Part shown: piece by piece, positions 5,496 to 30,451 of the stretch
Layout of the letters: each line of letters starts with the position of its first letter
Numbering within the stretch: the first letter of the stretch is position 1
Assembly (NCBI GenBank): GCA_964423505.1
Contig: CAYREX010000006.1
Coordinates: 930-64,929 of the forward strand
Direction: 5' to 3'
Origin: an uncultured bacterium
GTDB taxonomy: Bacteria > Fermentibacterota > Fermentibacteria > Fermentibacterales > JCC-6
DNA length: 64,000 bases
Position numbers and translations under genes: made by a program
Notes under the pieces: generated by a model
Databases searched by the model: none
The model's input: only the letters and a program-made list of their open reading frames with translations
Told to the model about the DNA's origin: nothing

Positions 5496-5505
5496 AAGAG
5501 AGGGC

Positions 5506-5580: not shown

Positions 5581-5598
5581 CCCATAACGGAAGGACGT

Positions 5599-5630
5599 CT
5601 TGACGTTATGACGTTATGGCTACATGATTC
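5599..5630 (+). promoter_or_regulatory. Putative promoter with tandem direct repeat operator
   Basis: TTGACG at 5599-5604 followed by an ACGTTATG-ACGTTATG tandem repeat; the -10 is unclear. The downstream RBS gaaaggagaat-ATG is identical to the one before the 16..423 ORF. Confidence 0.35.
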
Positions 5631-5651
5631 CTCTGGAAGGAAAGGAGAATC

Positions 5652-5885
5652 ATGTCTGATCTGACGAAAAGGGCTACTGTCTACCTTGATCCTGCGCTAC
5701 ACCGGGCACTGCGACTCAAGTCCGTAGAGACTTCAAGATCCATATCGGAACTGATCAACGATGCCATTCGAGAAGAACTGGCAGAGGACGCGGATGATCT
5801 GGCCGTCTTCCGTGCACGGATTGACGAGCCCACCGTAACGTTCGAGGCCTTCGTTGAAGGACTGAAGCGTGATGGCAGGCTATAG
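5652..5885 (+). CDS. Ribbon-helix-helix antitoxin (CopG/RelB/ParD-like), 77 aa
   Basis: RATVYLDPALHRALRLKSVETSRSISELINDAIREEL is an RHH DNA-binding motif. It overlaps the downstream toxin gene. Confidence 0.7.
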   Translation: MSDLTKRATVYLDPALHRALRLKSVETSRSISELINDAIREELAEDADDLAVFRARIDEPTVTFEAFVEGLKRDGRL

Positions 5886-6129
5886 GATTCTTATCCGGAA
5901 ATCGGTTCGGAAGGATCTTGATGGAATCCCGAAGAAGGATGTGCAGCGAATCGTCAAGGCAATCAGCAGTCTAGCCGAGGATCCGCGGCCGAGGCAATCC
6001 AAGAAGTTATCCGGAGAAGAGAAGTACAGGCTTCGGTGCGGATCTTACCGGGTGCTCTACGAGATTCTGGACAAAGAGCTGGTTGTGTACATCGTTCGAG
6101 CCCGGCATCGTAGAGACGCATATAGATAG
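5872..6129 (+). CDS. RelE/ParE-family type II toxin, 85 aa
   Basis: YRILIRKSVRKDLDGIPKKDVQRIVKAISSLAEDPRP...YRLRCGSYRVLYEILDKELVVYIVRARHRRDAY matches the RelE/ParE fold pattern. Confidence 0.75.
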   Translation: MAGYRILIRKSVRKDLDGIPKKDVQRIVKAISSLAEDPRPRQSKKLSGEEKYRLRCGSYRVLYEILDKELVVYIVRARHRRDAYR

Positions 6130-17087: not shown

Positions 17088-18818
17088 ATGAGACTTGCTG
17101 CGGTATTGGCTCTCGCCGTTCTCGCCATGGCGGCGGCGGACACCGTCCTGTCGAGGGTGAACGACGCCCTCGAGGCCGGTGAGATAACGACCGACCAGGC
17201 TGTCCGCTACCTGTGGGACAGCATCCACGACAGGAGCTCGCTTCCCGCCGACCTCGCCGAGGGTGCGGTGGAGGTACCCTGCGGCACTGCCACCATGGAC
17301 AGGATATCCGTCCTCCTCGACGACTGCACCGTTCCGGTCCGCGAGGAGATGCTGGACATCCTCTCCAGGCCTGACGTCGGCGACCCGGAGTACACCTACG
17401 ACACCCCCGACGGCAACTTCAAGATCCACTGGACCGACACCGGCATCAACGCCACCACCCAGAACTGGGTGGAGACCATAGGCGAGGGCATGGAGTACGC
17501 CTGGGAGCAGGAGTGCAACGTCCTCGACTGGGACGAGCCGCCCTCGGACCTGGGCCTCGGCGGCGACGAGAGGCTCGACGTCTACATCCTGCACCTCGAG
17601 GGGGGGGTCATCGGATGGTGCTCCAACGCGGGCAACCCGCCCGACCCGAGCACCCCCGAGAACGACTACGCCAGCCACATAGCCATGAGCAACAGCGAGA
17701 GCTGGGGCACCCTCCAGATACAGTCCACCTGCGCGCATGAGTTCAAGCACGCCATCCAGAACGGCTACGAGGCCGCCGAGCCTAGCTGGTTCAAGGAGAA
17801 CTGCGCCACCTGGATGGAGTACATGGTCGGATACCCCACGTACGCCTCCTACCTCCACGGCGGCGACAACTGTCTCCGCAGGCCCTGGTACGACATCAGG
17901 ACCATGGACGAGGGCCTCTACGAGTACGGCGCTACCCCCTGGCCCATGTACATGGCCGAGAGGTGCTCCGGGAACGAGACAGTCAGGCTCGTCTGGGAGG
18001 AGGCCGCCTCGGTGGTCGGCGCCGATATAATGGCGGCGATAGACAGGGCCGCCCAGGCGGAGGGCATGAGCTTCATGGAGTGGCTCGCAGAGTACGCCGC
18101 CTGGAGGTGGTTCACCGGCAACAACGCCAGCGACAACTACTACCCGATAGGGGAGTGCTCCCTCTGGACTCCGGGTCCCTACACCTTCGCCTACCACACC
18201 TTCGACGCGGCCGACCTGCCGGTCAGCGGCGACGAGGGCGTCTACAGGCCGGAGACCTACGGCCACCACTGGATATGGGTTGACGTCAGCGGCTTCTCCG
18301 ACTGGATAACCTTCGACTTCGACGGCCGGGACAACTTCCCCTGGCACGTGGGGGTCATCTCCACCAACGCAGACCACACGACCACCCAGTTCCAGTGGCA
18401 CGAGGTGGACAACACCGGCGCCACCATATCGCTCGGCGCCGCGACCGAAGGGTGGGACGACGTGGTCTTCTACGTACAGCCCACCTACGAGACCACCCTC
18501 TACATGACCTACGACTTCACCATCGAGGCACAGACCGGCGTCGGGAGCGGCCCCGCCTTCGACATCGAGATGACGCCTGCCTCCAACCCGATTGCCAGCG
18601 GCCAGGCGATTGACGTCAGCATCCCCACCGCCGGCCGGACCACCCTGAACGTCTACGACATGAGCGGACGGATGGTGCAGAGCATCTACTCCGGCCAGCT
18701 CCCGGAGGGCGAGAGCAGCCTTGTCTGGGACGCCGGGAACCTCTCCTCGGGCACCTACTTCCTGATGCTGAGCGCGCCGGGCGGCGGGCTCACCAGCCAG
18801 GTCGTCCTCTCCAACTAG
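17088..18818 (+). CDS. Secreted HEXXH zinc metallopeptidase with T9SS-type C-terminal sorting domain, 576 aa
   Basis: Signal peptide, HEFKH zinc-binding motif, and a C-terminal ~70 aa LNVYDMSGRMVQSIYSGQLPEGESSLVWDAGNLSSGTYFLML...VVL resembling a T9SS/FlgD-Ig-like sorting domain. RBS gaggagg upstream. Confidence 0.65.
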   Translation: MRLAAVLALAVLAMAAADTVLSRVNDALEAGEITTDQAVRYLWDSIHDRSSLPADLAEGAVEVPCGTATMDRISVLLDDCTVPVREEMLDILSRPDVGDPEYTYDTPDGNFKIHWTDTGINATTQNWVETIGEGMEYAWEQECNVLDWDEPPSDLGLGGDERLDVYILHLEGGVIGWCSNAGNPPDPSTPENDYASHIAMSNSESWGTLQIQSTCAHEFKHAIQNGYEAAEPSWFKENCATWMEYMVGYPTYASYLHGGDNCLRRPWYDIRTMDEGLYEYGATPWPMYMAERCSGNETVRLVWEEAASVVGADIMAAIDRAAQAEGMSFMEWLAEYAAWRWFTGNNASDNYYPIGECSLWTPGPYTFAYHTFDAADLPVSGDEGVYRPETYGHHWIWVDVSGFSDWITFDFDGRDNFPWHVGVISTNADHTTTQFQWHEVDNTGATISLGAATEGWDDVVFYVQPTYETTLYMTYDFTIEAQTGVGSGPAFDIEMTPASNPIASGQAIDVSIPTAGRTTLNVYDMSGRMVQSIYSGQLPEGESSLVWDAGNLSSGTYFLMLSAPGGGLTSQVVLSN

Positions 18819-18888
18819 CCAGCCGATTCAAGAGGCGGGGCGGGCAGCCGCCCGTCCCGCCCTCCGACAAACGAAGAGGAAGGAGCCC

Positions 18889-20592
18889 ATGAAGGCTACC
18901 GTACTGCTTGCGGCGGCTCTGGCCCTGGCGACGGGTACCGTCGCGGCCGACACCTCCATGCAGCGGATAATGGACGCTCTGGAGGAGGGCAGGCTCGACG
19001 CCGAGTCGGCGTCGGAGCTGCTCGTGCTCAGCGTGACCGACCCCTCCGCCCTTCCCGGAGAGTACGTCGAGGGGACCGAGCCGGCCCCCAGCGGCACCCC
19101 GGCCATGCTCCAGGCCTACAGGCTCAACCCGGACATGAGGGCCAACAGGCCTAATCTCAGCGGTCCGGAGTACACCCTCACCTCCCCTGACGGACACTTC
19201 CTCGTCCACTGGACCGACCAGGGGGCCGACGCCACCAATCAGTCTTACGCCGAGGGCATAGCCGAGGCCGCCGACTACTCCTGGCAGGTCGAGTGCGACG
19301 AGATGGGCTTCTTCGAGCCGCCGCCCGACGCCGGGGTGGGAGGCAACGACCTCTACGACATCTACATCATGAACATAGGTCCGCTGGGATACACCAGCGG
19401 CGCCGGCGAGTTCCAGCCGCCGGACAGCACCCACGACTGCAGCGCCAGCCACATCGTCATGTGCAGGGGCCTCCAGACCGGGCAGCGCAACTGCACCGTC
19501 TCGCACGAGTTCGCCCATGCCATACAGATGTCCTACGACTACAACGAGCCCATCTGGTTCATGGAGAACTGCGCCGTCTGGGCGGAGGAGCAGGTCTACC
19601 CGGAGGTGAACGACTACGTCAACTACCTCCACGGCGGCGACAACCCGCTCCGCAAGCCCTGGTGGGACATAAGGGACAGCGGCGGCAGCCTCTACCACTA
19701 CGGTGGGGTGCTCTGGGCGATGTACATGTCGCAGAGGCTGGACGACACCGACGTCATCCGGCAGGTCTGGCAGTACTGCGCCGACACCAGGGGCATGAAC
19801 ATGATGGAGGCCCAGGAGGACATGTTCGCCGACCACGGCATGCTCTGGGAGGACGCCTTCATGGAGTACGGCCTTTGGCGCTGGTTCACGGCGGGCAACT
19901 GGTTCTCCGGCTGCGGCCTGTACTTCGACGAGGCGCCTCTCTGGACTCCCGGTCCCTACGTGTTCTCCTACCACCAGATAAGCTCCCTGCCCGCCACCGG
20001 CGACGAGGGAGTCTACTTTCCGGAGAGGTTCGGCATAGCCTGGATACAGGTCGATCTGACCGACTACCAGGACGGCTGGGTCAAAATGGACTTCGACGGC
20101 CGCGACTACTTCGAGTGGAACCTCGGGGCCATCATGTGGGACGAGGGAGAGGACTGGCAGTTCGCCTGGTACGACTGCGACGGGACCACCGGCGACAAGA
20201 CCGTCTCGGTCGACGCCTCCGGGTGGGACTACGTGGTCTTCTTCCCCGCCTTCATCTCCGAGTCCAGCCTCGACCACACATACGACTTCGAGATCACCTA
20301 CGAGAGCGGCGCCCCCGGCGGGGAGACCCCGCGGGACATATCCGTCGCTCCCGCCTCCAACCCGGCGCGTCCGGGGACCGAGCTGAGCTTCTCGGTGCCG
20401 GCCGCCTGCAGGGCGACCCTCCTCGTCTACGACGCATCCGGCAGGGTCGTCGACTCCCTCTTCGACGGCGAGGTGGCCGCCGGCAGCCACAGCGTGAGCT
20501 GGGAGGCCGAGGGGCTCTCCACCGGCTCCTACTTCCTCACCCTCCATGCCGGCAACGCCGCCACCGGGACAAGGGTGGTCCTCACCAGGTAG
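18889..20592 (+). CDS. Paralogous secreted HEXXH zinc metallopeptidase with T9SS-type C-terminal domain, 567 aa
   Basis: Collinear with the upstream protein (TSPDGHFLVHWTDQGADATNQSY..., HEFAH motif, same C-terminal domain). Confidence 0.65.
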   Translation: MKATVLLAAALALATGTVAADTSMQRIMDALEEGRLDAESASELLVLSVTDPSALPGEYVEGTEPAPSGTPAMLQAYRLNPDMRANRPNLSGPEYTLTSPDGHFLVHWTDQGADATNQSYAEGIAEAADYSWQVECDEMGFFEPPPDAGVGGNDLYDIYIMNIGPLGYTSGAGEFQPPDSTHDCSASHIVMCRGLQTGQRNCTVSHEFAHAIQMSYDYNEPIWFMENCAVWAEEQVYPEVNDYVNYLHGGDNPLRKPWWDIRDSGGSLYHYGGVLWAMYMSQRLDDTDVIRQVWQYCADTRGMNMMEAQEDMFADHGMLWEDAFMEYGLWRWFTAGNWFSGCGLYFDEAPLWTPGPYVFSYHQISSLPATGDEGVYFPERFGIAWIQVDLTDYQDGWVKMDFDGRDYFEWNLGAIMWDEGEDWQFAWYDCDGTTGDKTVSVDASGWDYVVFFPAFISESSLDHTYDFEITYESGAPGGETPRDISVAPASNPARPGTELSFSVPAACRATLLVYDASGRVVDSLFDGEVAAGSHSVSWEAEGLSTGSYFLTLHAGNAATGTRVVLTR

Positions 20593-20673
20593 GACCCGAG
20601 GAGCAGCGCAGCGCGATGAGGGGGGCCGCACCGGCCCCCCTCCCTCAGCATCCCGGGACTCGGCCGGCGGACC

Positions 20674-21831
20674 CTACATCTCGCGCACCCCTATGAGGTC
20701 GCCGTCCGGGCCGTACACCATCCTCCTGGAGGTGCAGCCGTGGACGGTGCTCACCGCGGGCGCGCCGTCCCCGTCCATGTAGCTCTCCACCTCCACCCTG
20801 CCCATGCCGTCGTACTGCAGGTCCATCGCGCTGCAGCCGTGCAGGGGGCTCTCCACCGGCTCGCCGTCAGGGTCGAACCAGGAGACCCGGACGGGGCTCC
20901 CCGAAGGGCCGAGGACCCGCCGGACCGAGCCGATGCCCTCCACGGTGGCCACCGGCTCCCCTTCACCGTCACGGTAGGTCTCCACCACAACCTCGCCCCC
21001 GGGGCCGTACTCCAGCAGGATCCGGTGAACGCCGAGGCCGGGGTGCAGCGCGGGGCTGCCGTCCGGCGCCTCGCAGGCGACGGAGACGGCCCTGCCCAGA
21101 GAGTCGAGGGTCCTTCTGAGGACGGCGTACCCGAGGGCCGGCGGCGCCACCGGCAGGCTGTCGGCGTCCAGGTAGGCAACGGTTACCGGGAGCTCGCCGT
21201 CGCCGTACTCCAGGACCACCCTGGCGTAGCCGGAGTCGGGGCTGGTGAGCGGCTCCCCCTCCGGGCCGCGCATGACCCTCTCCACCACCCGGCCCAGGCT
21301 GTCGGCCCGGATGAGCAGCGACCAGCAGCCGGCAGCCGGGCTGTAGACCGGCTCGCCGGCCGCGTCCAGGTAGCTCACGCTGGTGCCGCCCCCCCTCCTC
21401 TCCACCAGCATGGCGGCGCATCCGGTCACCTCCGAGGTCATCGGGCTGCCGGAGGCGTCCAGGCAGGTCTCCCTGACGGTCCTGCCCAGGGAGTCCAGCT
21501 CCAGTGCGACCCCGGCGCATCCGAACACCGAGCTGGTGCACGGCTCGTCCGACCCGCCGTAGAAATCCAGGGAGACCAGCCTCCCCTCCCCGTCGTAGCC
21601 GTAGTCGACCCTGACGCAGGCGCCCTCCGTATCCACCCTCCTGGCGGGGGGCGGGTCGTAGACCCTTCGGACGATGTTGCCGGAGCTGTCCCGGGTGAAC
21701 CTGATGTCGCCGGTCACGAAGCCCTCCGCAGGCGGGGCCGGCTCCCCCGGGCCGCCGCATGACAGCGCCAGGAGCGCCGGCGCGAGCGCGGCCAGCTGCC
21801 GAAGGTACGGAGCACTCCACCCGACCCGCAT
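20674..21831 (-). CDS. YD-repeat lipoprotein, 385 aa
   Basis: Lipobox LLALSCGG; repeated units with VRVDYGYDGEGRLVS-type YD motifs and D.LGR spacing. Confidence 0.5.
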   Translation of the reverse strand: MRVGWSAPYLRQLAALAPALLALSCGGPGEPAPPAEGFVTGDIRFTRDSSGNIVRRVYDPPPARRVDTEGACVRVDYGYDGEGRLVSLDFYGGSDEPCTSSVFGCAGVALELDSLGRTVRETCLDASGSPMTSEVTGCAAMLVERRGGGTSVSYLDAAGEPVYSPAAGCWSLLIRADSLGRVVERVMRGPEGEPLTSPDSGYARVVLEYGDGELPVTVAYLDADSLPVAPPALGYAVLRRTLDSLGRAVSVACEAPDGSPALHPGLGVHRILLEYGPGGEVVVETYRDGEGEPVATVEGIGSVRRVLGPSGSPVRVSWFDPDGEPVESPLHGCSAMDLQYDGMGRVEVESYMDGDGAPAVSTVHGCTSRRMVYGPDGDLIGVREM

Positions 21832-21989: not shown

Positions 21990-22802
21990 GTGACCAGAGC
22001 CAACCTGCGGCGGGTCATCCGCCTGCCGGCGGCAGCGCTGGTGCTCGTCATGCTGGGCTCCTGCGGCAGCGGGACGGAGGAGCCGACCATCACCCTGGAG
22101 GTTTCCCCATCCGCCGGCACGGTGCTGCTGGTCCTGACCGGACTGGAGCCCTCCCCCGCCCTCCCCTGGTCGCTCTCCGGCCTCGCACCCCGGCTCGCCG
22201 CGGGCATGCTGGCCCTCTCGAAGGATGGCCAGACCGACGTGGCGGCAGGGCTGGTCGAGTCCGCAGGGGAGGCGGGGCTGCTGCTGGCTCTGGTGGACAC
22301 GGAGCTGCCCGGCGGCATCGTCGGTGCGGGCGGCAGGGAGGACATGATCCTGGAGACCGGGCCCGACGGGTTGCCCCGGAGCACCCCGGACGTGCTGCAG
22401 GAGGAGGCCGGAGAGAGCTGGAGCACGGTGGCCGGAAGGCACGCCGCGCTGCGCGAGCTGATGCTGACCTACCGGCCGGACCTGATGGTCATTACCGATG
22501 ATACCGGGACCGGACGGGCGGCACGGACGGCCTGCAGCCTCTGGACACGGGGCACGCTGCTCGACTCGCTGAGCCTCGTGGTGCTGTCGCCCCCCTCGGG
22601 CAGGTACCGCGGCTGGGCGGTCCTCGGCGGTCCCGCGGTGACCGGGGGCAGACCGGTGGGGCTGACGACCGGAAGCCTGCTCACGACCGTTGAGCTGATG
22701 CTGGACCTGGAGTGGAGGGGGAGGCTGCCGGACCACCCGCCGGCGCTCTCCGTGCTCTCCCTCGGGACGGCCGGCTCCCTGGAGGGGGAGGGAGCGGAAT
22801 GA
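21990..22802 (+). CDS. Hypothetical lipoprotein (GTG start), ~270 aa
   Basis: RBS ggaggagga then GTG; lipobox LVLVMLGSCGSG. Stop overlaps the next gene start (ATGA). Confidence 0.4.
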   Translation: MTRANLRRVIRLPAAALVLVMLGSCGSGTEEPTITLEVSPSAGTVLLVLTGLEPSPALPWSLSGLAPRLAAGMLALSKDGQTDVAAGLVESAGEAGLLLALVDTELPGGIVGAGGREDMILETGPDGLPRSTPDVLQEEAGESWSTVAGRHAALRELMLTYRPDLMVITDDTGTGRAARTACSLWTRGTLLDSLSLVVLSPPSGRYRGWAVLGGPAVTGGRPVGLTTGSLLTTVELMLDLEWRGRLPDHPPALSVLSLGTAGSLEGEGAE

Positions 22803-24973
22803 GCCCGAGACGTTCCCTCTCGCGCCTGGTGGAGCGCGTAGCGGCCATCGAGGCCTCCGCCGGCTCCCTGCTGGCGCTCTTCGTGTTCACGGTGGTCCTG
22901 CGCAACCTCCTGGAGTCCGCCCAGGTCGGCACGGTCTTCCCGCCGGCGGCGTTCGCCTTCCACTTCCCCATAGCCTACGTCTTCCCGATGCTGGGGATCA
23001 CCGCGGTGATGCAGGCCATGTCCGGCTATCCTGCCGGGAAGCTCCTGAAGCTGATGGTCTTCGCATGGACCCTGACGCTCCTCCCCCCCGTGCTGGACGT
23101 CCTCATGGGGACCGATTCGGCCATCGGCTACTTCCCCCTCTCCCGCACCAACGTCGGCAGCTTCCTGCTCGGCTTCTTCGACCCGTCGGTGGAGCTGCCG
23201 GGCACTACGGCGGGCATAAGGATAGAGGCGGCGCTCGGATGCGTGCTGGCCGGCTTCTTCTCCTGGGCGGTGGCCCGGAGCAGGCCGGTGCTCCGGGGAG
23301 TGCTGACCACCCTTTTGCTGGCCCCTCTCTTCCTAGTCTTCTTCACCTGGCCCAACCTGGTCCACCTCGCCCTGGGCGGGCTATTCCCCCACACGGAGAC
23401 CGCGCAGGAGATGTACCAGTGGCACGCAGCCACGGCGCCGGACCTCACCGGCTCCTTCCACTACACCATCTTCATAGTGGACCTGCTGCCGGTCACCCTG
23501 CTCGTCGGCTGGTTCCTGCGCCGGATCCTGCCCCGGGAGACCGGGGAGGCGGCCCGCCGGCTCGCAGGGCGTCCCTGGGCGCTGCTGCTGCCGGTGGCGG
23601 GAGCCGCCGCAGCCCTCACCTCCATGGGTGGACACCTGACCTTTGCCGACGCTACGGACGTGGCCGGAGCGCTCCTCGCAGGTCTGCTCCTGGCCGTCGC
23701 CATGAGGTCGCGGGGGACTGTGGGGACCGTCGTACGCGTACTGGCGCTGGCGGCGGCGGCAGCGGTCGGGTGGCCCGTGCTGGTCCTGGCTGCGCTCGCC
23801 ATGGCCGCGATGGGCCTTCCCGGGCCGGCACAGCTCCGGGAGGGATTGACCGGGGTCCTTCTCCTGCTGGTTCCGGCGGCTACCGCCGGGCTCTCCTGGA
23901 GTCCTTCAGCCCTGCCGGCAGTCCTTCTGGCGGCGGCAGCACTGGCCCTGCCTCCGGCGACGCTCCGGGCAGCCTCCGCGGTGGCCGCCGTAGTCGTCTC
24001 TTTCCTGCTGCCCACCGGCGGGAGGACCGCCCGGGCCGAGCACTACGAAGGCCTGGTGGACGCCCTGAACCGGAACGGCATGCAGGACCTGGCGCTCCCG
24101 GCGGCCTCCAGGAGCGCCGCCGGTGGAGGCGGCATGCTCGATTTGGCCAGGGCGGAGCTGGAGTCCGGCTCCCTCCCCAGGGCCAGGTGGGCGTGGGAGG
24201 CGGCCACACGTGAGGGAGAGCTGAGCGGCGACGCGCTGAGGGCGGGCGTGAACCTCGCCTTCGTACAGGGGCGCACCGGGGCGATGGACAGCCTCGTTGC
24301 CCTGGGCGGGGACGAGCTGGCTGCGGAGAGCGGCCTTGCGGGGCTGCTGCTGGGCAGGGCGGCCCAGGCCGGCGACACCGCCACGGTTGGCCGGCTGCTC
24401 TCGGAGGTCGGCCCGGACCCGAGGCTGCTCCATGCATACTCGGTCGCCCTCTCCGAGCTGGGCGAGCTGCAGGAGGCCGCGGACTGGGCCGTTGCGGCCG
24501 CCTCCCACCCGGAAGCGGGACCGGCCCACCTGTCGTGGGCCATCGGCCTCGCGGGCGAGGCGGGGCTCGACCCGGACTCGGTCTACGCCGAGGGTGCGGA
24601 GAGGTTCCCGGGCTCCGTACAGCTCATGACCGCCAGGCTGATGGCTTCCGTGACCACCGGCGCGCCTGACAGGCCGGACCTCCTGGAGGCAGTCCTCGCC
24701 CTCGAGCCGGCCTCGCCCCGGGTACTCAGGGCCGGCGCGGCCTGGCTGCTCTCCGCGGGGATGCCGGACAGCGCCCTGGCGCTGGCGGAGAGGGCGGTGG
24801 CGAGTACGCCCGAGCCGGACCCGGCGCTCCTCCTGCTGCTGTGCGAGTCGGCCTCCGCCGCCGGCGACTCCGCCGCGCTCGAGTCGGCCACGAGGTACGC
24901 CGCCACCCTCTACCCCCGTCTGTTCGGCGGCGGGCAGGCCGGTGAGGGGGAGGCCGGGGGGAGCGGCGAATGA
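22799..24973 (+). CDS. Polytopic membrane protein with C-terminal TPR repeats (putative GT-C family glycosyltransferase)
   Basis: Many hydrophobic helices over the first ~430 aa, then TPR-like Ala/Leu-rich repeats. Translationally coupled to flanking genes. Confidence 0.45.
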   Translation: MSPRRSLSRLVERVAAIEASAGSLLALFVFTVVLRNLLESAQVGTVFPPAAFAFHFPIAYVFPMLGITAVMQAMSGYPAGKLLKLMVFAWTLTLLPPVLDVLMGTDSAIGYFPLSRTNVGSFLLGFFDPSVELPGTTAGIRIEAALGCVLAGFFSWAVARSRPVLRGVLTTLLLAPLFLVFFTWPNLVHLALGGLFPHTETAQEMYQWHAATAPDLTGSFHYTIFIVDLLPVTLLVGWFLRRILPRETGEAARRLAGRPWALLLPVAGAAAALTSMGGHLTFADATDVAGALLAGLLLAVAMRSRGTVGTVVRVLALAAAAAVGWPVLVLAALAMAAMGLPGPAQLREGLTGVLLLLVPAATAGLSWSPSALPAVLLAAAALALPPATLRAASAVAAVVVSFLLPTGGRTARAEHYEGLVDALNRNGMQDLALPAASRSAAGGGGMLDLARAELESGSLPRARWAWEAATREGELSGDALRAGVNLAFVQGRTGAMDSLVALGGDELAAESGLAGLLLGRAAQAGDTATVGRLLSEVGPDPRLLHAYSVALSELGELQEAADWAVAAASHPEAGPAHLSWAIGLAGEAGLDPDSVYAEGAERFPGSVQLMTARLMASVTTGAPDRPDLLEAVLALEPASPRVLRAGAAWLLSAGMPDSALALAERAVASTPEPDPALLLLLCESASAAGDSAALESATRYAATLYPRLFGGGQAGEGEAGGSGE

Positions 24974-26463
24974 GGGCGGCAGCATGGCGGGAGCATGTCC
25001 CGCTGCTGCTCATCGCCGCCCTGTACGCCGTCTGGTCATGGGTCTCCGGGCCGCCGGTCTTCGACTCCCTCGACGGCACGGAGTTCGTGATATGCGCCCG
25101 GGGGCTGGAGATACCCCACCCTCCGGGATACCCGCTGTTCGTCTTCCTCCTCAGGGCGGCCACCGCCATCCTGCCCTGCCCGGTGATCGACTACTCCTGC
25201 GTGCGGGTGGTGACCACGCTGCTTGCAGCGATGGGCCTTCTGGCGGCCCGGGCGGCGCTGCGCGAGCTGGGGCTCGGGCGGGTCGCCAGCACCGGCGGCG
25301 CGCTGCTGTTCTACACGCTTGCCCCGGTGGCCTCGCAGACCAACATCGTGGAGATACACGGCATGGCGATGCTGCTGGCATTCGCCGCCGTCGCCCTGCG
25401 GAGCAGCAGGCTCGGGCCGTACGCGTTCTCCCTCTCCGTCTTCGGAGGGCACCCGGTCTCCGCGCTGCTGCTGCCGCTGGTCCTGACCAGGCGCTTCCGG
25501 GAGAGGTGGGCGGTGCTCGCCGCAATACCGGCGAGCCTGTGGCTCTTCGTCCCCATCCGGGCCACCTTCCCCGCCCTGAGCCACTACTCCTACCCGGCCA
25601 GCCTTGACCTGCTGGGGAGGTACATGGGGCTCTATGGCCCGAGGCTGGACGCTCCGGGGCTCCGGAACCTCTCTGTGATGCTGAAGGACCTGGGGCTCGT
25701 GAGCGGCGGTGCCCTGCTCGGGCTCATCGCCGGAGGAGGCAGGTGGAGGCCCAGGGCGGCAGCCGGCTCTCTGCTCGGTCTCCTGTTCGTCTCATCCTAC
25801 AACATCGTCGACATAGACAGCCTGCTCTGGATCCCCCTGCTGCCCCTGAGCGTCTGGGCGGCGGCAGGTCTGGAGGGGCTCCTGCGGAGGGGGAGGGCGG
25901 GAAGGGCGGCCGCTGCGGTCCTGGTCGCGGCCTCGGTGGCGGCCGGCTCGGTCGGCGCCTGGCGGGGCGGGGACGTATCCGCCTCCCTCCTCTCCAGGGA
26001 CATGCTGAGGGGCGTGGGCTACAGGGGCGCCTACTGTACAGTCGGCTTCGTGACCTTCCACACCGCCTACCTGATGGATGTGGAGGACCGGAGACCGGAC
26101 ATCATACCCCTTGACACCTACGAGTGCTACTACAGGCTGCCCCCGCCGGACTCCCTCCCTCCGGAGATAGCGGGCAGGACGGTATTCACCACCAGGGGCT
26201 GGGAGCAGGACAGGATGAAGCTGGCCGGCATGCTCTTCACCTCGGACACCATGTCGGTGGACTGGGAGATGTTCGACATCTTCCGGCGGGACCACGACAT
26301 ACCGGACGGCTACGCCAGCGACGCAGTGGCCGAGGTATGGGCGCGCAGGGCGATACAGACAGAGGACCCGATGCTCCGGGACAGCTTCGAGAAGCGGGCC
26401 ATGGACTACGCCGTCTCCCCGCTGGCCACCCGGCGGATACAGATCATCCTTGAGACGCTCTGA
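24970..26463 (+). CDS. DUF2723/TMEM260-like GT-C fold membrane protein (putative O-mannosyltransferase-like glycosyltransferase)
   Basis: N-terminal DGTEFV...HPPGYPLF motif characteristic of DUF2723/TMEM260 proteins; polytopic; ATGA coupling to the upstream gene. Confidence 0.5.
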   Translation: MRAAAWREHVPLLLIAALYAVWSWVSGPPVFDSLDGTEFVICARGLEIPHPPGYPLFVFLLRAATAILPCPVIDYSCVRVVTTLLAAMGLLAARAALRELGLGRVASTGGALLFYTLAPVASQTNIVEIHGMAMLLAFAAVALRSSRLGPYAFSLSVFGGHPVSALLLPLVLTRRFRERWAVLAAIPASLWLFVPIRATFPALSHYSYPASLDLLGRYMGLYGPRLDAPGLRNLSVMLKDLGLVSGGALLGLIAGGGRWRPRAAAGSLLGLLFVSSYNIVDIDSLLWIPLLPLSVWAAAGLEGLLRRGRAGRAAAAVLVAASVAAGSVGAWRGGDVSASLLSRDMLRGVGYRGAYCTVGFVTFHTAYLMDVEDRRPDIIPLDTYECYYRLPPPDSLPPEIAGRTVFTTRGWEQDRMKLAGMLFTSDTMSVDWEMFDIFRRDHDIPDGYASDAVAEVWARRAIQTEDPMLRDSFEKRAMDYAVSPLATRRIQIILETL

Positions 26464-28849
26464 CGACCGGAGCGTGACCGCCGCCAGGGTCGCCCTCGCG
26501 GTGGTCTGCCTGCTCTACTGCCTGACGCCGATACACAACGGCAACTTCTTCTGGCACCTGAGGAACGGCGAGGACATCCTGGACACCGGCGTCATCCGGA
26601 CGGAGGACCCCTTCACCTGGACCGCCGAGGGCTGTCACTGGCTGCAGCAGGAGTGGCTGTCGGAGGTCCTCTTCGCAGCGTCCTACCGGGTGGGCGGCGA
26701 GGCGGGGCCCATACTCCTGAAGGGGCTGGCCGTGATGGCGGCGGTCCTCCTGGCCACGGGTGCCGCCGGAAGGCTCGGTGCCGGCTGGAAGGGAGTCGTC
26801 CTCGTCGGCGTCGCCTGGCTGGCGCTCGCACAGGGGCGCTGGGTGGTCAGGCCGCACGTGCTCACGATCCTGATGTTCAGCCTCTACCTCTACCTCACCG
26901 CCAGGGGCACGGGGGGGCTGCTCCGGTCGCTGCTGGTCTTCGTCCCGCTGCAGGTGGTCTGGGTGAACCTCCACGCCGGCTTCATGGCCGGCTGGTTCCT
27001 CCTTGCCATCCCGGTTGGAGGTGCGCTCCTGGAGAGGCGCCCCCGGGAGGCGCTGCGTCGGGGTGCGGTGCTCTCCGGGGCCGTGCTGGCCAGCGGCCTG
27101 CACCCCAACGGCTTCGAGTCCATCACGTACCTGACCGACTTCCTCTCGAGGCCGCTCTTCAGGCAGACCATCAGGGAGTGGTGGAGCCCGTTCCACCCGA
27201 TGTTCGACCCGGCGCACGCCATCGCCCCGTTCGCGGTGGGGCTGGTGCTCGTCCTGCTGGCCACCTGGGCGGTGGTTCTCCTCGGGCGCCGGAGGATGGA
27301 CCCTCCCAGGATGCTCGGGCTGCTCCTGCTCTCCGCGGCCACCCTGACCACCAGCAGGAACATCGACCTGCTGGCCATGGCCGCCGTCGCATGGGTGGCA
27401 CCGCTGGTCCCGGCCAGGAGGATACCCGCAGCGGTACCGATCGTACTCCTCGCCGCGGCGGCGGCAGTACCGCCCGTCCTCGGGGTGCCAAGGGGGTTCG
27501 GCCCGCCGAGGAGCATGGGCCTGGGGGTGGACTGGGACATCTACCCGGACGGCCTGGCCGACTTCCTGGAGGAGAACCCCGCCCTGCTGGACCTGCGCGT
27601 CCTCAACTCCAACGAGATATCCGGCTACCTGGAGTACCGCTTCGGCGAGCGGCTGCCGCTCTACATGGACGGCAGGTGCCACCTCTACCCGCAGGAGCTG
27701 TACGCGGAGTACATCGCGCTCACCAGGGCCCCGGACCTGTCGCTGGCATCCTACCAGATGGAGGTCGTGTCGGAGAGGGGCTTCGGGCTGGCGCTCCTGG
27801 ACCATCCCCGGAGCGAGGGATCGGTGGCCTACCTGCTGGCGACCCTCCCTGGCTGGAGGGCGGTCTACTGGGACGAGCTGACCGTCGCCTACGCGAGGGA
27901 GCCGGTGCCTCCCGGCGTTCCCACCGCCGGCCTGGAGACGGTCGACCCGCTGCTTCCGGGGGACCTCCTGGAGCGGCCGCTCCACTCGCTGCCGGCTCCC
28001 ATGCTCGAGTCGGAGCTGCTGCCGGCGGCAGGGCTCGGATGGGAGCCGGCCATAACGGCCTCGTCGGCACTGCTCCTCAGGGACTCCTCGGATTGCTCCG
28101 GCTACCGGGCCGGGCTGCTGCCGGACTCCTCGCGGGAGGCGCTCCTCTCCGCTCTCGCGGGGGAGCCGCCCCGCTCGACCGACCCGAGGCTCCTGACGGT
28201 CAGGTGCTGGGCGCTCTGCCGGCAGGGCCTCGCGGAACAGGCGCTGGAGGCGGCCGAAGCCTCCGGGGACGACGCCCTGCTCACCTCCGCCCGGGTGCTG
28301 GCGGGCCTGCCTGCGGAGCCGGGGTCGCAGCCGCCGCCGGTGGTACCCTCCGGCGCGTGGGGACGCTACGCCGACGGCAGCGCCTCCCCGGCGGAGTCGC
28401 TGGCGGTGATGGTATCCTCTCTGGCGGCCTGCGGCCGTCTGCAGGAGTCTGTAGGCTCCGCCGACGCCCTGCTGGACGGTCCGGCGGGAGCGGAGCCCTG
28501 GACCCTCTGCTGCGCCGGTCGGACGCTGGCTCTGGCCGGCGACCGGGAGGGGGCGCTCTCCGCCCTGGACAGGGCACTCGGCCTCTCGGCCAACCCCTAC
28601 ACCCTCACCCTGGCCGGGAGCGTGCTCGGCATGCTGGGCGAGCACGGTGAGGCGGTCCCACTGCTCCGCAGCGCCGTCGAGATGGCCCCCGGCCTGGACC
28701 GCTCCAGGCTGGAGCTGGCCGAGGCGCTCTGGAGGAGCGGACGGATCGCCGAGGCTGCCGCTCACTACCGAACCCTCCGGGAAAGGGGTTATCTTCCCGA
28801 GTCCTCCGCCCTGCGGATGCGCTGGGCCGAGGCGCTGGCCGGCGGCTGA
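26450..28849 (+). CDS. Polytopic membrane protein with C-terminal TPR repeats (GT-C glycosyltransferase-like), 799 aa
   Basis: About 11 TM helices followed by a ~350 aa TPR region (GEHGEAVPLLRSAVEMAP...). Start overlaps the upstream stop. Confidence 0.45.
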   Translation: MRRSDDRSVTAARVALAVVCLLYCLTPIHNGNFFWHLRNGEDILDTGVIRTEDPFTWTAEGCHWLQQEWLSEVLFAASYRVGGEAGPILLKGLAVMAAVLLATGAAGRLGAGWKGVVLVGVAWLALAQGRWVVRPHVLTILMFSLYLYLTARGTGGLLRSLLVFVPLQVVWVNLHAGFMAGWFLLAIPVGGALLERRPREALRRGAVLSGAVLASGLHPNGFESITYLTDFLSRPLFRQTIREWWSPFHPMFDPAHAIAPFAVGLVLVLLATWAVVLLGRRRMDPPRMLGLLLLSAATLTTSRNIDLLAMAAVAWVAPLVPARRIPAAVPIVLLAAAAAVPPVLGVPRGFGPPRSMGLGVDWDIYPDGLADFLEENPALLDLRVLNSNEISGYLEYRFGERLPLYMDGRCHLYPQELYAEYIALTRAPDLSLASYQMEVVSERGFGLALLDHPRSEGSVAYLLATLPGWRAVYWDELTVAYAREPVPPGVPTAGLETVDPLLPGDLLERPLHSLPAPMLESELLPAAGLGWEPAITASSALLLRDSSDCSGYRAGLLPDSSREALLSALAGEPPRSTDPRLLTVRCWALCRQGLAEQALEAAEASGDDALLTSARVLAGLPAEPGSQPPPVVPSGAWGRYADGSASPAESLAVMVSSLAACGRLQESVGSADALLDGPAGAEPWTLCCAGRTLALAGDREGALSALDRALGLSANPYTLTLAGSVLGMLGEHGEAVPLLRSAVEMAPGLDRSRLELAEALWRSGRIAEAAAHYRTLRERGYLPESSALRMRWAEALAGG

Positions 28850-28912: not shown

Positions 28913-30451
28913 ATGTCGATGATAAAGAGGATGGTCAGCGACTTCCTCGCCAGGCTCGCGCGAAAGCGCGAGGGCGGCGGCGAGGGGGCCATCGAGAAGC
29001 AGAGGAAGAAGGGGAAGCACACCGCACGGGAGCGGGTCGAGATGCTGCTGCTCGACGAGGACAGCTTCCTGGAGATAGACCTCTTCGTCGAGCATACCGC
29101 CAGGGACTTCGGGATGGACCGGAAGGAGCTGGCTGGCGACGGCGTCATAACCGGCTACGGCAGGGTGGCGGACAGGCCGGTCGCGGTCTTCGCCCAGGAC
29201 TTCACCGTTGCCGGAGGCTCGCTGGGAAGGGCTCACGCCAAGAAGATAACCAAGGTCATGGACGTGGCCGCGGAAGGACTAATGCCCCTGGTGGGGATAA
29301 ACGACTCGGGCGGGGCGAGGATACAGGAGGGCGTCGAGTCGCTCTGCGGCTACGGCGAGATATTCTACAGGAACACCAGGCTGAGCGGCGTGGTACCCCA
29401 GATATCGGTGATACTCGGCCCATGCGCCGGCGGCGCGGTCTACTCCCCGGCCCTCACCGACTTCGTCTTCGTGGTCGACAGGATATCCAACATGTTCATC
29501 ACCGGCCCGCAGGTGATCAAGACGGTGCTGGGCGAGGAGGTGACCCAGGAGGAGCTGGGCGGCGCCAGGACCCAGACATCCATAACCGGCAACGCCCACT
29601 TCTACGCGGAGAGCGAGCCGGAGGCCTTCGACCAGGTGAAGAGGCTGCTCTCCTTCCTGCCCGCCAGCTGCTACGAGCTCCCCCCGCATCACAGGCCGGT
29701 CCCGCCGATTCGTCCGCTGGGCGACGACGTGATACCGGACGACCGCCGGGAGGCCTACAGCGTCAGGGACATCATCCGCGGCATCGTCGACGCCTCTGAC
29801 TTCTTCGAGGTGAGCGAGGGCTGGGCGAGGAACATAGTCACCGGCTTCGCCAGGCTGGGCGGCAGGACCGTGGGCGTGATAGCGAACCAGCCCCGGGTGC
29901 TGGCCGGCGTGCTGGACGTGGACGCGTCGGACAAGGCGGCCCGCTTCATACGCTTCTGCGACAGCTTCAACATCCCGCTGCTGACCTTCGTGGACACGCC
30001 CGGATACCTGCCGGGGGTCGACCAGGAGCACGCCGGGGTCATAAGGCACGGGGCGAAGCTCCTCTTCGCCTACTCCGAGGCGACCGTGCCGAAGCTGACC
30101 GTGATAATGCGGAAGGCCTACGGCGGGGCCTACATCGCCATGTGCAGCCGCCACCTGGGCGCCGACTTCGTCGTCTCCTGGCCCTCGGGCGAGATAGCGG
30201 TCATGGGTCCGGAGGGCGCCGCCAACATCATCTTCCGCAGGGAGATACAGGCCGCCGAGGACCCGGAGCAGTGCCGCCGGGAGAAGGTGGCGGAGTACGA
30301 GGAGAAGTTCTCCAACCCGTACGTCGCCGCCGCCAGGGGGTACGTCGACACCATCGTCAGCTCCGGCGGCACGAGGGACGTCCTGCTGCAGGCGCTGGAG
30401 GTGGTCGGCACCAGGACCGCCGGGCCCAAGCACGGCAACATACCCCTCTAG
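28913..30451 (+). CDS. Acyl-CoA carboxylase carboxyltransferase subunit (propionyl-CoA carboxylase beta / methylmalonyl-CoA decarboxylase alpha family)
   Basis: Full-length match to the carboxyltransferase pattern (KGKHTARERVEMLLDEDSF, GVITGYGRV, VAVFAQDFTV). Confidence 0.9.
   Translation: MSMIKRMVSDFLARLARKREGGGEGAIEKQRKKGKHTARERVEMLLLDEDSFLEIDLFVEHTARDFGMDRKELAGDGVITGYGRVADRPVAVFAQDFTVAGGSLGRAHAKKITKVMDVAAEGLMPLVGINDSGGARIQEGVESLCGYGEIFYRNTRLSGVVPQISVILGPCAGGAVYSPALTDFVFVVDRISNMFITGPQVIKTVLGEEVTQEELGGARTQTSITGNAHFYAESEPEAFDQVKRLLSFLPASCYELPPHHRPVPPIRPLGDDVIPDDRREAYSVRDIIRGIVDASDFFEVSEGWARNIVTGFARLGGRTVGVIANQPRVLAGVLDVDASDKAARFIRFCDSFNIPLLTFVDTPGYLPGVDQEHAGVIRHGAKLLFAYSEATVPKLTVIMRKAYGGAYIAMCSRHLGADFVVSWPSGEIAVMGPEGAANIIFRREIQAAEDPEQCRREKVAEYEEKFSNPYVAAARGYVDTIVSSGGTRDVLLQALEVVGTRTAGPKHGNIPL

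What the first reader, a model, noticed from the sequence alone, without database searches (positions are those of the whole stretch)
21990..28849. Translationally coupled operon of a lipoprotein plus three large TPR-bearing membrane proteins, one DUF2723/TMEM260-like
Four genes overlap start-to-stop: ATGA at 22799, 24970/24973, and 26450/26463. Three encode 500-800 aa polytopic membrane proteins with C-terminal TPR arrays. The middle one carries the DGTEFV...HPPGYPLF motif of the DUF2723/TMEM260 family, whose eukaryotic member is a protein O-mannosyltransferase. Three different GT-C-like/TPR proteins in one coupled operon suggests a dedicated glycosylation machine for proteins or a surface polymer. 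Candidate substrates are the abundant secreted proteins carrying C-terminal sorting domains. This is not a described system in high-GC Gram-negative bacteria.
Basis: partly seen in the sequence, partly recalled or inferred. Interest (0 to 1): 0.6.

Follow-up and report, generated by a model that had tools for sequence, protein, structure and literature searches.

The report
Fermentibacterota four-gene membrane glycosyltransferase operon
A tightly coupled four-gene operon, found throughout the uncultured phylum Fermentibacterota, pairs a bacterial relative of the human protein O-mannosyltransferase TMEM260 with a second glycosyltransferase-like membrane protein that has lost its usual acidic motif, a membrane protein with a previously undescribed module, and a lipoprotein; it is probably an envelope glycosylation complex, but this rests on computation alone.

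Summary
The four genes are real. They are g1 21990-22802, g2 22799-24973, g3 24970-26463 and g4 26450-28849. The g1/g2 and g2/g3 junctions are ATGA overlaps. The g3/g4 junction is a 14-nt overlap, or a 10-nt gap if the GTG at 26474 is the start.

- **g1** is a lipoprotein; its lipobox Cys is present in all 11 orthologs examined.
- **g3** is a genuine DUF2723/TMEM260-family GT-C. It scores above the Pfam threshold, and its profile hits the solved human TMEM260 at E=5e-11. The counterparts of the catalytic D52 and H67 (and of E55) are invariant. It has no TPR.
- **g4** (model pLDDT 95) has 11 TM helices, a periplasmic alpha/beta domain and TPR. Foldseek finds the GT-C enzymes DPY19 and ArnT. All 51 Fermentibacterota orthologs carry NxN (seven carry SxN) where remote homologs carry DxD in the first periplasmic loop.
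- **g2** is not recognisably GT-C. It has a conserved 5-TM module, which elsewhere is fused to true UbiA prenyltransferases, followed by 8 more TM helices and TPR.

The g1-g4 order holds in every Fermentibacterota locus long enough to show it.

A glycosylation machine is plausible, but its substrate and sugar are unknown. I rate it a new variant of a known kind, of moderate interest.

The parts
21990..22802 (+). g1: 270-aa lipoprotein (signal peptide plus lipobox LGSC, Cys25 at 22062-22064); periplasmic protein of unassigned fold with conserved YxPD and RGW motifs
   Evidence: GTG start with GGAGGAGG upstream. The Cys is present in all 11 orthologs. No Pfam, NCBIfam or PDB match.
22799..24973 (+). 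g2: 724-aa polytopic inner-membrane protein (about 13 TM helices, N-terminus in, C-terminus out) with a periplasmic TPR-like domain
   Evidence: AlphaFold model has pLDDT 86. The ATGA overlap with g1 is seen. Full-length homologs occur only in Fermentibacterota.
22799..23383 (+). g2 N-module (aa 1-195, 5 TM helices). Its invariant residues R35, N36, E39, H55, P97, D100, R141 and E143 lie near the periplasmic face. It belongs to no Pfam or NCBIfam family.
   Evidence: Alignments A2 and A4. 227 clusters in 1.84 billion proteins at E<=1e-3. hhalign gives probability 99.9% (E 1e-35) to the N-terminal module of UbiA-fused proteins. No family hits.
23384..24022 (+). g2 second TM block (aa 196-408, about 8 helices). 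It occupies the position that the UbiA domain has in relatives, but it lacks the Asp-rich motifs and shows no detectable UbiA homology.
   Evidence: Alignment A7 and its inspection. hhalign against the UbiA domains gives probability 1.6%.
24029..24928 (+). g2 periplasmic TPR-like superhelix (aa 411-710, with a disordered insert at aa 495-522)
   Evidence: The top Foldseek PDB hits are all TPR proteins. Weak Pfam TPR_14 and TPR_19 hits. Secondary structure from the model.
24970..26463 (+). g3: 497-aa DUF2723/TMEM260-family GT-C glycosyltransferase. It has a TM domain (aa 1 to about 335) and a periplasmic C-terminal domain (aa about 336-497), and no TPR.
   Evidence: Pfam PF11028 at 32 bits, cut-off 24.2. 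The profile hits PDB 9rql, human TMEM260, at E 5e-11, with a second collinear stretch over the RPDI motif. Homologs are named DUF2723 in Aegiribacteria.
25063..25137 (+). g3 signature region D32-x2-D35-G-x-E38 ... H50-P-P-G-Y-P-L56 in the first periplasmic loop
   Evidence: These residues are invariant in 23 orthologs. D35, E38 and H50 align to TMEM260 D52, E55 and H67. D52A is used as the catalytically inactive variant and mutation of H67 abolished activity (bioRxiv 10.64898/2026.03.17.711096).
26450..28849 (+). g4: 799-aa protein (791 aa if it starts at GTG 26474) with a GT-C-like TM domain, a periplasmic alpha/beta domain and a TPR array
   Evidence: AlphaFold model has pLDDT 95.2 and pTM 0.91. 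Foldseek hits: 7zli_A DPY19 (E 3.9e-4, 672 columns, TM-score 0.43) and 5f15 ArnT (E 1.6e-3), among many TPR hits.
26537..26545 (+). g4 N30-G31-N32 in the first periplasmic loop. This position holds a DxD motif in remote homologs.
   Evidence: Position 32 is N in 51 of 51 Fermentibacterota sequences and D in 16 of 16 remote homologs. Position 30 is N or S in Fermentibacterota and D in 13 of 16 remote homologs (alignment).
27959..28843 (+). g4 periplasmic TPR array (aa 504-798)
   Evidence: Pfam TPR_2, TPR_19 and other TPR families. The profile hits PDB TPR proteins down to E 1e-63. Helical repeats are seen in the model.
17088..20592 (+). Conserved upstream neighbours whose membership in the system is uncertain: two paralogous secreted proteins (17088-18818 and 18889-20592), each with DUF6055, an HExxH motif and a FlgD_ig/Por_Secre_tail C-terminal sorting domain
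   Evidence: Pfam hits. HEFKH and HEFAH motifs. One or two copies lie upstream of g1 in every locus that has upstream sequence. In Sabulitectum the gap to g1 is only 8 nt.

Best explanation
g1-g4 most likely encode the subunits of an inner-membrane, periplasm-facing glycosylation complex specific to Fermentibacterota.

**Proposed roles**
- **g3 is the catalytic subunit.** It is a TMEM260/DUF2723-type GT-C enzyme that would transfer a sugar from a polyprenyl-phosphate-linked donor to an acceptor in the periplasm. By analogy with TMEM260 the sugar may be mannose, but this is not shown.
- **g2 and g4 may supply acceptor recognition in trans.** Human TMEM260 carries its acceptor-binding TPR domain on the same chain. 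g3 has none, and g2 and g4 may provide TPR domains instead.
- **g4 is a GT-C-fold paralogue.** Its first-loop DxD has become NxN, so it probably acts as a non-catalytic or mechanistically altered partner.
- **g2 may handle the lipid carrier.** Its conserved 5-TM module is fused to UbiA prenyltransferases in other lineages, which suggests a role with an isoprenoid lipid or lipid carrier.
- **g1 is a periplasmic lipoprotein accessory.**

**Shown:** gene structure, family membership of g3, fold class of g4, the D-to-N substitutions, the homology of the g2 module, and operon conservation.

**Inferred:** complex formation, the division of labour, the donor, and the acceptor (protein or glycan).
For: - **Coupling and synteny.** Starts and stops overlap. 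The g1-g2-g3-g4 order holds in 11 distinct Fermentibacterota loci that carry all four genes, at 20-60% amino-acid identity, and in two shorter fragments that carry g2-g3-g4.
- **g3.** Pfam PF11028 scores above its gathering threshold. The profile hits solved human TMEM260 at E 5e-11. D35, E38 and H50 are invariant and align to D52, E55 and H67; D52 and H67 are essential for TMEM260 activity.
- **g3 lacks TPR, whereas in TMEM260 the TPR domain suffices for acceptor peptide binding**. g2 and g4 both have periplasmic TPR arrays.
- **g4.** The model is confident (pLDDT 95) and has GT-C fold hits to DPY19 and ArnT. Residues N30-N32 lie six to eight residues after TM1 (helix 7-24). From general knowledge of GT-C enzymes, this is where the catalytic acidic residue normally sits. 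N replaces D in 51 of 51 sequences.
- **g2.** Its N-module is homologous to the module fused to UbiA domains, which were found in 35 of 66 relatives scanned.
- **Weak context.** Secreted sorting-domain proteins lie upstream, and a mannose-1-phosphate guanylyltransferase-type gene (ManC-like) lies about 4 kb downstream, in several genomes.
Against: - There is no experimental evidence and no evidence of a physical complex. Translational coupling and synteny also fit sequential enzymes in one pathway.
- The whole 20-kb neighbourhood is syntenic, including an unrelated RNase-J-like beta-CASP gene and a carboxyltransferase. The adjacency of DUF6055 and ManC is therefore weak evidence.
- TMEM260's proposed catalytic base D441 aligns to Phe or Met in g3, although that alignment is weak. 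No structure model was made for g3.
- The GT-C fold hits for g4 are modest (TM-scores 0.37-0.43, E about 1e-3 to 1e-4).
- g4 keeps other invariant acidic residues (D42, D53, E68), so it may still be active.
- A more distant g3 homolog (34% identity, L022) has no g4 downstream.
- No TMEM260-type IPT sequon was found in the neighbouring secreted proteins.
Confidence: 0.5

Rival explanations
1. The operon encodes a pathway of independent enzymes that act in sequence to build or decorate an envelope glycopolymer or glycolipid, rather than a protein-glycosylating complex. Examples would be LPS/lipid A modification of the ArnT type, or arabinan-like polymer synthesis as carried out by the mycobacterial Emb and Aft GT-Cs. 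In this reading the TPR domains mediate contacts with envelope assembly machinery.
For: - g4's fold hits include ArnT, a lipid A glycosyltransferase.
- From general knowledge, bacterial GT-C enzymes mostly act on glycolipids or polymers.
- The organism has LPS genes nearby: a CMP-Kdo-synthetase-like gene (CTP_transf_3) in the window, and Lip_A_acyltrans and DAHP_synth_1 in relatives.
- Relatives of g2 are fused to UbiA, which recalls the decaprenyl-phosphoribose donor pathway that feeds GT-C arabinosyltransferases (general knowledge).
Against: - g3's closest characterised relative is a protein O-mannosyltransferase.
- TPR domains in TMEM260 bind peptide acceptors. TMTC and OGT also carry TPR repeats (PMC10214176); that these serve peptide binding is general knowledge.
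- There are no Wzx, Wzy, ABC-exporter or GT-A/GT-B genes in or next to the operon.
- The UbiA domains of g2's relatives score best against ChlG- and DGGGP-synthase-type models rather than the phosphoribosyltransferase type. g2 itself has no UbiA domain.
Confidence: 0.3
2. Only g3 is an enzyme of glycosylation. g2, g4 and g1 serve an unrelated envelope function, such as handling type IX secretion cargo or a TPR-scaffolded outer-membrane or periplasmic assembly. They travel with g3 only because the region is syntenic.
For: - Synteny extends well beyond the four genes.
- g4 has lost the DxD motif.
- g2 has no glycosyltransferase signature.
- Proteins with sorting domains of the type IX kind always lie upstream.
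Against: - Overlapping start and stop codons at all junctions persist despite 35-50% protein divergence. This argues for co-translation and matched stoichiometry.
- g4 retains many invariant polar residues at the periplasmic membrane face: W35, H36, D53, E68, R134, N173, H175, E243 and R303. That pattern is typical of a ligand-binding or catalytic site.
- The same is true of the g2 N-module.
Confidence: 0.12
3. The overlaps and ORFs are annotation artefacts of a high-GC sequence, and the cluster has no joint function.
For: High-GC DNA yields many long spurious ORFs on both strands.
Against: All four proteins have dozens of full-length homologs with conserved residues. The structure models are confident. 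Gene order is conserved across the phylum.
Confidence: 0.01

Closest known systems
Human TMEM260 (protein O-mannosyltransferase; Pfam PF11028 DUF2723/TMEM260-like; PDB 9rql/9rqm/9rqn)
   Same: g3 shares the N-terminal GT-C signature, DxxE...HPPGYPLF, and the donor-contacting Asp and His are conserved. The alignment continues collinearly into the luminal/periplasmic domain, where the RPDI motif lies.
   Different: - g3 is 497 aa against 707 aa for TMEM260, and it has no TPR domain.
- The proposed catalytic base D441 does not align to an acidic residue, although that alignment is weak.
- g3 is bacterial, so the donor would be a polyprenyl (undecaprenyl-type) phosphate sugar rather than dolichol-P-Man.
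- The acceptor is unknown.
- g3 is encoded in an operon with two TPR-bearing membrane partners.
GT-C fold glycosyltransferases DPY19 (C-mannosyltransferase, 7zli) and ArnT (lipid A aminoarabinose transferase, 5f15)
   Same: The predicted g4 structure aligns with both over about 600-670 columns at Foldseek probability 1.0. g4 has 11 TM helices, a first periplasmic loop containing a juxtamembrane helix, and a periplasmic C-terminal domain.
   Different: - There is no sequence-level similarity to any solved GT-C or to any Pfam GT-C family.
- The first-loop DxD found in remote homologs is NxN in all Fermentibacterota orthologs (seven have SxN).
- g4 carries a long C-terminal TPR array.
TMTC1-4 (GT105) and other GT-C plus TPR architectures
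   Same: g4 has the same layout: a GT-C-type membrane domain followed by luminal/periplasmic TPR repeats (TMTC architecture from PMC10214176).
   Different: No sequence relationship was detected. Here the TPR modules sit on partners of the likely catalytic subunit (g3), not on that subunit itself.
UbiA-superfamily intramembrane prenyltransferases with an N-terminal extension (relatives such as P0280, P0283 and P0296)
   Same: The g2 N-module (aa 1-195) is clearly homologous to the N-terminal 5-TM module of these 500-550-aa proteins (hhalign 99.9%).
   Different: g2 has no UbiA domain: the Asp-rich motifs are absent and hhalign gives 1.6%. In its place are 8 TM helices of unknown origin plus TPR. 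The function of the shared N-module is itself unknown.
Heteromeric GT-C enzymes (yeast Pmt1-Pmt2, mycobacterial EmbA-EmbB)
   Same: The concept is shared: two GT-C-fold membrane proteins working as one unit. This comes from general knowledge; Pmt1-Pmt2 is cited in PMC10214176.
   Different: In those pairs both partners are paralogues of one family and keep their acidic motifs. Here g3 and g4 are unrelated in sequence (hhalign 6%), and g4 has lost the motif. Complex formation here is only inferred.

Membership tests
DUF2723 / TMEM260-like GT-C (PF11028), tested for g3 | Match to the family HMM above Pfam's gathering score | tested here: met
   32.0 bits against a cut-off of 24.2, covering residues 35-95. 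Of the 23 full-length homologs other than the window's own protein, 20 carry PF11028.
DUF2723 / TMEM260-like GT-C (PF11028), tested for g3 | First-loop Asp (TMEM260 D52) and the HPPGYP His (H67), both needed for activity | tested here: met
   D35 and H50 are invariant in 23 sequences and align to D52 and H67. The functional data come from bioRxiv 10.64898/2026.03.17.711096.
DUF2723 / TMEM260-like GT-C (PF11028), tested for g3 | Luminal/periplasmic Rossmann-like domain carrying the catalytic base (TMEM260 D441) | tested here: inconclusive
   A second collinear HMM stretch (7.4 bits) aligns the RPDI motif, but D441 falls opposite Phe or Met.
DUF2723 / TMEM260-like GT-C (PF11028), tested for g3 | C-terminal TPR acceptor-binding domain, as in human TMEM260 | tested here: not met
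   No TPR family was found in g3 or in its full-length homologs P0001-P0024. This feature belongs to the human enzyme, not to the Pfam family.
DUF2723 / TMEM260-like GT-C (PF11028), tested for g3 | O-mannosyltransferase activity using a polyprenyl-phosphate mannose donor | not testable with these tools
   This requires biochemistry.
GT-C fold superfamily, tested for g4 | Polytopic membrane fold superimposable on solved GT-C enzymes | tested here: met
   Foldseek hits 7zli_A DPY19 (E 3.9e-4, TM-scores 0.37/0.43) and 5f15 ArnT (E 1.6e-3, TM-scores 0.30/0.40), both at probability 1.0. The strength is moderate.
GT-C fold superfamily, tested for g4 | Acidic (DxD, DE or ExD type) motif in the first extracytoplasmic loop | tested here: not met
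   The motif is NGN at residues 30-32. Position 32 is N in 51 of 51 Fermentibacterota sequences and D in 16 of 16 remote homologs. D42, D53 and E68 remain invariant nearby.
GT-C fold superfamily, tested for g2 | GT-C fold hit and a long first periplasmic loop | tested here: not met
UbiA prenyltransferase (PF01040), tested for g2 | Asp-rich motifs (NDxxDxxxD and DxxxD) and an HMM match | tested here: not met
   None of the 50 g2-family members scanned matched PF01040. The motifs are absent from the alignment. hhalign gives probability 1.6%. Only the N-module is shared with UbiA-fused relatives.
TPR repeat proteins | Tandem helical-hairpin repeats recognised by TPR HMMs or by fold | tested here: met
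   Met for g4 and for g2. Not met for g3.
Bacterial lipoprotein, tested for g1 | Signal peptide ending in a lipobox with an invariant Cys | tested here: met
   The lipobox is LGSC with Cys25. The Cys column is invariant in all 11 orthologs.
Translationally coupled operon | Overlapping or abutting stop and start codons on one strand, conserved in relatives | tested here: met
   ATGA at 22799 and at 24970; a 14-nt overlap or a 10-nt gap at g3/g4. Overlaps or abutting genes are called at all three junctions in L001 and L005. Co-transcription was not tested.

The most novel reading that the evidence does not exclude
The operon encodes a split GT-C holoenzyme of a kind not yet described. In it, catalysis sits on g3 (a TMEM260-type core without TPR). 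Acceptor capture sits on the TPR arrays of g2 and g4. A pseudo-GT-C subunit (g4, DxD to NxN) and lipid-carrier handling (a new 5-TM module in g2, otherwise fused to UbiA prenyltransferases) sit on separate, co-translated membrane subunits. Under this reading the g2 N-module would be a new family that acts on isoprenoid-linked substrates at the periplasmic face.
Probability: 0.2. Interest if true: 0.7.

Novelty: new variant of a known kind. Interest (0 to 1): 0.5.

Why it matters
- **Bacterial DUF2723 function.** Bacterial DUF2723 proteins are widespread but uncharacterised. The only functional knowledge comes from human TMEM260, a disease gene.
- **A natural dissection of TMEM260-type recognition.** A phylum-wide operon that separates the TMEM260-type catalytic core from TPR modules offers a natural experiment. 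It could show how GT-C enzymes recruit acceptors, and could give a bacterial model for TMEM260 mechanism.
- **Two unmodelled membrane families.**
  - The g4 family is GT-C-like and carries DxDxxWH in its remote members.
  - The g2 N-module occurs in 227 clusters among 1.84 billion proteins and is often fused to UbiA.
- **A possible pseudo-GT-C.** The clean D-to-N switch in g4 suggests a pseudo-glycosyltransferase partner, which to my knowledge has not been documented for GT-C enzymes.
- **Envelope biology of an uncultured phylum.** Fermentibacterota have no cultured members. A conserved envelope-modification system would be a defining trait of their cell surface.

Tried and rejected
- **Exact-sequence lookup of the window's own g3 protein.** It failed. 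The organism was therefore inferred from homologs only; no source name could be obtained.
- **g2 as an exosortase-like Cys/Arg/His enzyme.** I considered this because of the motif GIRIEAALGC. I rejected it because Cys148 is not conserved in the wider family.
- **g2's second TM block as a degenerate UbiA domain.** The multiple alignment suggested this, but hhalign does not support it (probability 1.6%).
- **g1 as a degenerate alkaline-phosphatase/phosphodiesterase domain.** I recalled a resemblance in the YxPD and RGW...G motifs, and a g2-like gene is flanked by Phosphodiest/Sulfatase genes in L092. No HMM, hhalign or PDB support was found.
- **g1 related to the periplasmic domains of g3 or g4.** No support.
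- **The partner of a remote g4 homolog (the 614-aa protein in L007) as a relative of g2 or g3.** No support.
- **Context of g2-like genes outside the phylum.** No g1-like or g3-like neighbours were found in L089, and the other contexts examined showed no DUF2723 or GT-C neighbours.
- **Sequence-profile searches of the g2 and g4 TM domains against the PDB.** Nothing was found.
- **Promoter and terminator scan.** Uninformative.
- **TMEM260-type IPT sequon (GPxxGG) in the adjacent secreted proteins.** Absent.

Full report
**Observation**

The region holds four same-strand genes.
- g1 starts at GTG 21990, preceded by GGAGGAGG, and ends at 22802.
- g2 starts at ATG 22799, inside ATGA with the g1 stop.
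- g3 starts at ATG 24970, inside ATGA with the g2 stop.
- g4 can start at TTG 26450, a 14-nt overlap with the g3 stop at 26461-26463.
  - The NCBI protein P0026 is 791 aa, which implies GTG 26474 and a 10-nt gap.
  - A 799-aa version is on record in Logan.
  - Gene calls in relatives overlap by 14-26 nt at this junction.

A carboxyltransferase gene follows g4 at 28913-30451.

**Source organism**

The window is about 70% GC, apart from its first 6 kb. Every full-length homolog of g2, g3 and g4 comes from Fermentibacterota MAGs (Candidatus Aegiribacteria, Sabulitectum, Fermentibacteraceae) at 35-53% identity. The window's own proteins are present in NCBI on a 145-kb contig that carries no name. 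The organism is therefore a divergent member of this uncultured phylum. It is not a classical high-GC proteobacterium.

**g1**

g1 is a 270-aa lipoprotein.
- The lipobox Cys is invariant in all 11 orthologs, as are YxPD and RGW motifs.
- No Pfam, NCBIfam or PDB relative was found.
- No relation to the periplasmic domains of g3 or g4 was found.

**g3**

g3 is a genuine DUF2723/TMEM260-family GT-C.
- It passes Pfam PF11028 at 32.0 bits, against a cut-off of 24.2.
- A profile of 23 orthologs hits the solved human TMEM260 (9rql) at E 5e-11.
- In that alignment D35, E38 and H50 match TMEM260 D52, E55 and H67. All three are invariant in the g3 family.
- The cryo-EM preprint reports that D52 and H67 contact the mannose of the donor. 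D52A is used as the catalytically inactive variant, and mutation of H67 abolished activity (10.64898/2026.03.17.711096).
- A second, weak, collinear stretch aligns the RPDI motif of the luminal Rossmann-like domain. TMEM260's proposed catalytic base D441 falls opposite Phe or Met.
In TMEM260 the TPR domain suffices for acceptor peptide binding, and mutating its asparagine ladder cut activity to about 10%.

**g4**

The AlphaFold model is confident: pLDDT 95.2, pTM 0.91. It shows about 11 TM helices and a first periplasmic loop with a juxtamembrane helix. A periplasmic alpha/beta domain (aa about 345-500) and a TPR array (aa 504-798) follow.

Foldseek against the PDB returns many TPR proteins. 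It also returns the GT-C enzymes DPY19 (7zli_A, E 3.9e-4, 672 columns, TM-scores 0.37/0.43) and ArnT (5f15, E 1.6e-3).

The family has no Pfam model and no sequence-level hit to a solved structure. Remote homologs of 450-540 aa without TPR occur in Dormibacterota, Anaerolineales and other lineages.

In these remote homologs the first loop reads DxDxxWH. In all 51 Fermentibacterota orthologs the second Asp is Asn and the first is Asn or Ser. This is the position where GT-C enzymes normally carry their catalytic or metal-binding acidic residue (general knowledge). Other invariant polar residues persist: D42, D53, E68, R134, N173, H175, E243, R303, D407 and R409. g4 is therefore either a pseudo-GT-C partner or an enzyme with altered chemistry.

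**g2**

The model (pLDDT 86) shows about 13 TM helices followed by a TPR-like superhelix (aa 411-710). By the positive-inside rule the N-terminus is cytoplasmic and the TPR domain is periplasmic; this is my reading of the sequence.

- Only TPR-type helical-repeat proteins, and no GT-C enzyme, appear among the 50 Foldseek PDB matches listed.
- No Pfam family matches the TM part in any of 50 members.
- The first 195 residues are extremely conserved. Invariant residues include R35, N36, E39, H55, P97, D100, R141 and E143, all near the periplasmic face.
- The loop between TM1 and TM2 is about 5 residues, unlike the long first loop of GT-C enzymes.

An exhaustive profile search of 1.84 billion representatives found only 227 clusters. 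These fall into two groups.
- The first group comprises 500-550-aa proteins: the N-module plus a genuine UbiA prenyltransferase domain. PF01040 was found in 35 of 66 relatives scanned, with a best E of 7.9e-33 and the Asp-rich motifs present.
- The second group comprises 650-1000-aa proteins: the N-module, a TM block without UbiA motifs, and TPR. g2 belongs here.

hhalign confirms homology of the N-module (99.9%, E 1e-35). It rejects UbiA homology for g2's second TM block (1.6%). g2 shows no profile similarity to g3 or g4. g2 is therefore not demonstrably GT-C, and its core is an undescribed membrane module linked by gene fusion to isoprenoid-lipid enzymes.

**Conservation of the operon**

tblastn of the window's proteins against all fetched loci shows g1-g2-g3-g4 in that order in 11 distinct Fermentibacterota loci that carry all four genes, and g2-g3-g4 in two shorter fragments.

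The wider neighbourhood is also syntenic:
- a beta-CASP RNase-like gene on the opposite strand;
- one or two DUF6055/HExxH proteins with FlgD_ig/Por_Secre_tail sorting domains immediately upstream (8 nt from g1 in Sabulitectum);
- often the carboxyltransferase downstream;
- then a 431-aa TPR protein and a mannose-1-phosphate guanylyltransferase-type gene (ManC-like) on the opposite strand.

Because synteny is this broad, the neighbours are weak evidence for substrate or sugar. A 34%-identical g3 homolog in another lineage (L022) has no g4 downstream. g2-like genes outside the phylum sit in other contexts.

**Interpretation**

The best-supported reading (confidence 0.5) is a periplasm-facing glycosylation unit built around g3.

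g3 has the TMEM260-type catalytic core but lacks the TPR module that TMEM260 uses for acceptor capture. Two translationally coupled membrane partners carry periplasmic TPR arrays. This complementarity, the conserved coupling and the D-to-N switch in g4 together suggest a hetero-oligomeric enzyme with non-catalytic or specialised partners. Complex formation, donor, acceptor and the roles of g1 and g2 are inferences.

The main rival (0.3) is a set of sequential enzymes acting on a glycolipid or envelope polymer. A weaker rival (0.12) is that only g3 is glycosylation-related.

**Novelty and limits**

No paper in the searchable library describes bacterial DUF2723 function or this operon. The TMEM260 paper notes only "distant homologs in bacteria".

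I classify the system as a new variant of a known kind: a GT-C glycosylation system that includes two membrane-protein families without models.

Limits of this analysis:
- There are no experimental data.

Noticed in passing
window 1-6100: This stretch is a low-GC island (44-52% against about 70% elsewhere). It is packed with small toxin-antitoxin-like gene pairs (named from my reading of the translations, not from a family search):
- HigB/HigA-like at 789-1389;
- BrnT/BrnA-like at 3642-4225 and 5012-5495;
- YefM/YoeB-like at 4179-4861;
- RelE/ParE-like at 5869-6129.

It also holds a GIY-YIG-like ORF (2679-3488). The genes are separated by repeated 80-250-nt elements at about 422-700, 1390-1600, 2364-2610 and 4856-4938. 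One of these (1398-1475) folds as an imperfect hairpin GTCAAC...GTTGAC with bulged bases (DNA fold z = -4.5), which resembles an integron attC site; a second copy (4850-4945) did not fold better than shuffles (z = -0.6). No integrase lies within the window. It may be an integron-type cassette array or another mobile island.
   Followed up: partly
window 20674-21831 (- strand): A 385-aa lipoprotein (lipobox LSC) with YD/RHS-like repeats sits between the second DUF6055 gene and g1 in this genome. It has no counterpart at E<1e-5 in the other Fermentibacterota loci. A GC-rich hairpin at about 20619-20643 lies between the two convergent genes.
   Followed up: partly
window 17088-18818 and 18889-20592: Two paralogous secreted proteins carry a DUF6055 domain with HEFKH or HEFAH (a zinc-metalloprotease-like motif), plus a FlgD_ig/Por_Secre_tail C-terminal sorting domain. 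DUF6055 may therefore be a metallopeptidase family secreted by a type IX-like system in this phylum.
   Followed up: partly
L092 585-6124 and L093 1-4850: Outside Fermentibacterota, a g2-like protein (P0221: N-module, TM block and TPR) is followed on the same strand by a Phosphodiest gene, then by a Sulfatase/Phosphodiest gene on the opposite strand. It overlaps the stop of an upstream gene that looked sulfatase-like by eye but was not scanned. This hints that the g2 module works with phospho-transfer or phosphodiesterase enzymes.
   Followed up: partly
L007 6160-9575 and L008 569-3984: A remote DxD-type homolog of g4 (P0121, 524 aa, no TPR) is translationally coupled to an uncharacterised 614-aa membrane protein. 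The pair lies next to a Tad/Flp pilus locus. The partner shows no similarity to g2, g3 or g4.
   Followed up: partly
window 28913-30451; 30866-32161 (-); 32786-33817 (-): Three genes lie downstream of the operon: an acyl-CoA carboxyltransferase beta subunit, a 431-aa all-TPR protein, and a mannose-1-phosphate guanylyltransferase-type gene (ManC-like; Pfam NTP_transferase plus ManC_GMP_beta-helix). The last two are syntenic in several relatives. The ManC-like gene could supply GDP-mannose for a polyprenyl-phosphate-mannose donor, but the link is only positional.
   Followed up: no
L022 782-2200: A 34%-identical g3-like DUF2723 protein from an unnamed MAG is not followed by a g4 homolog. The four-gene arrangement is therefore confined to the clade in which g3 identity is about 36% or higher.
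   Followed up: partly
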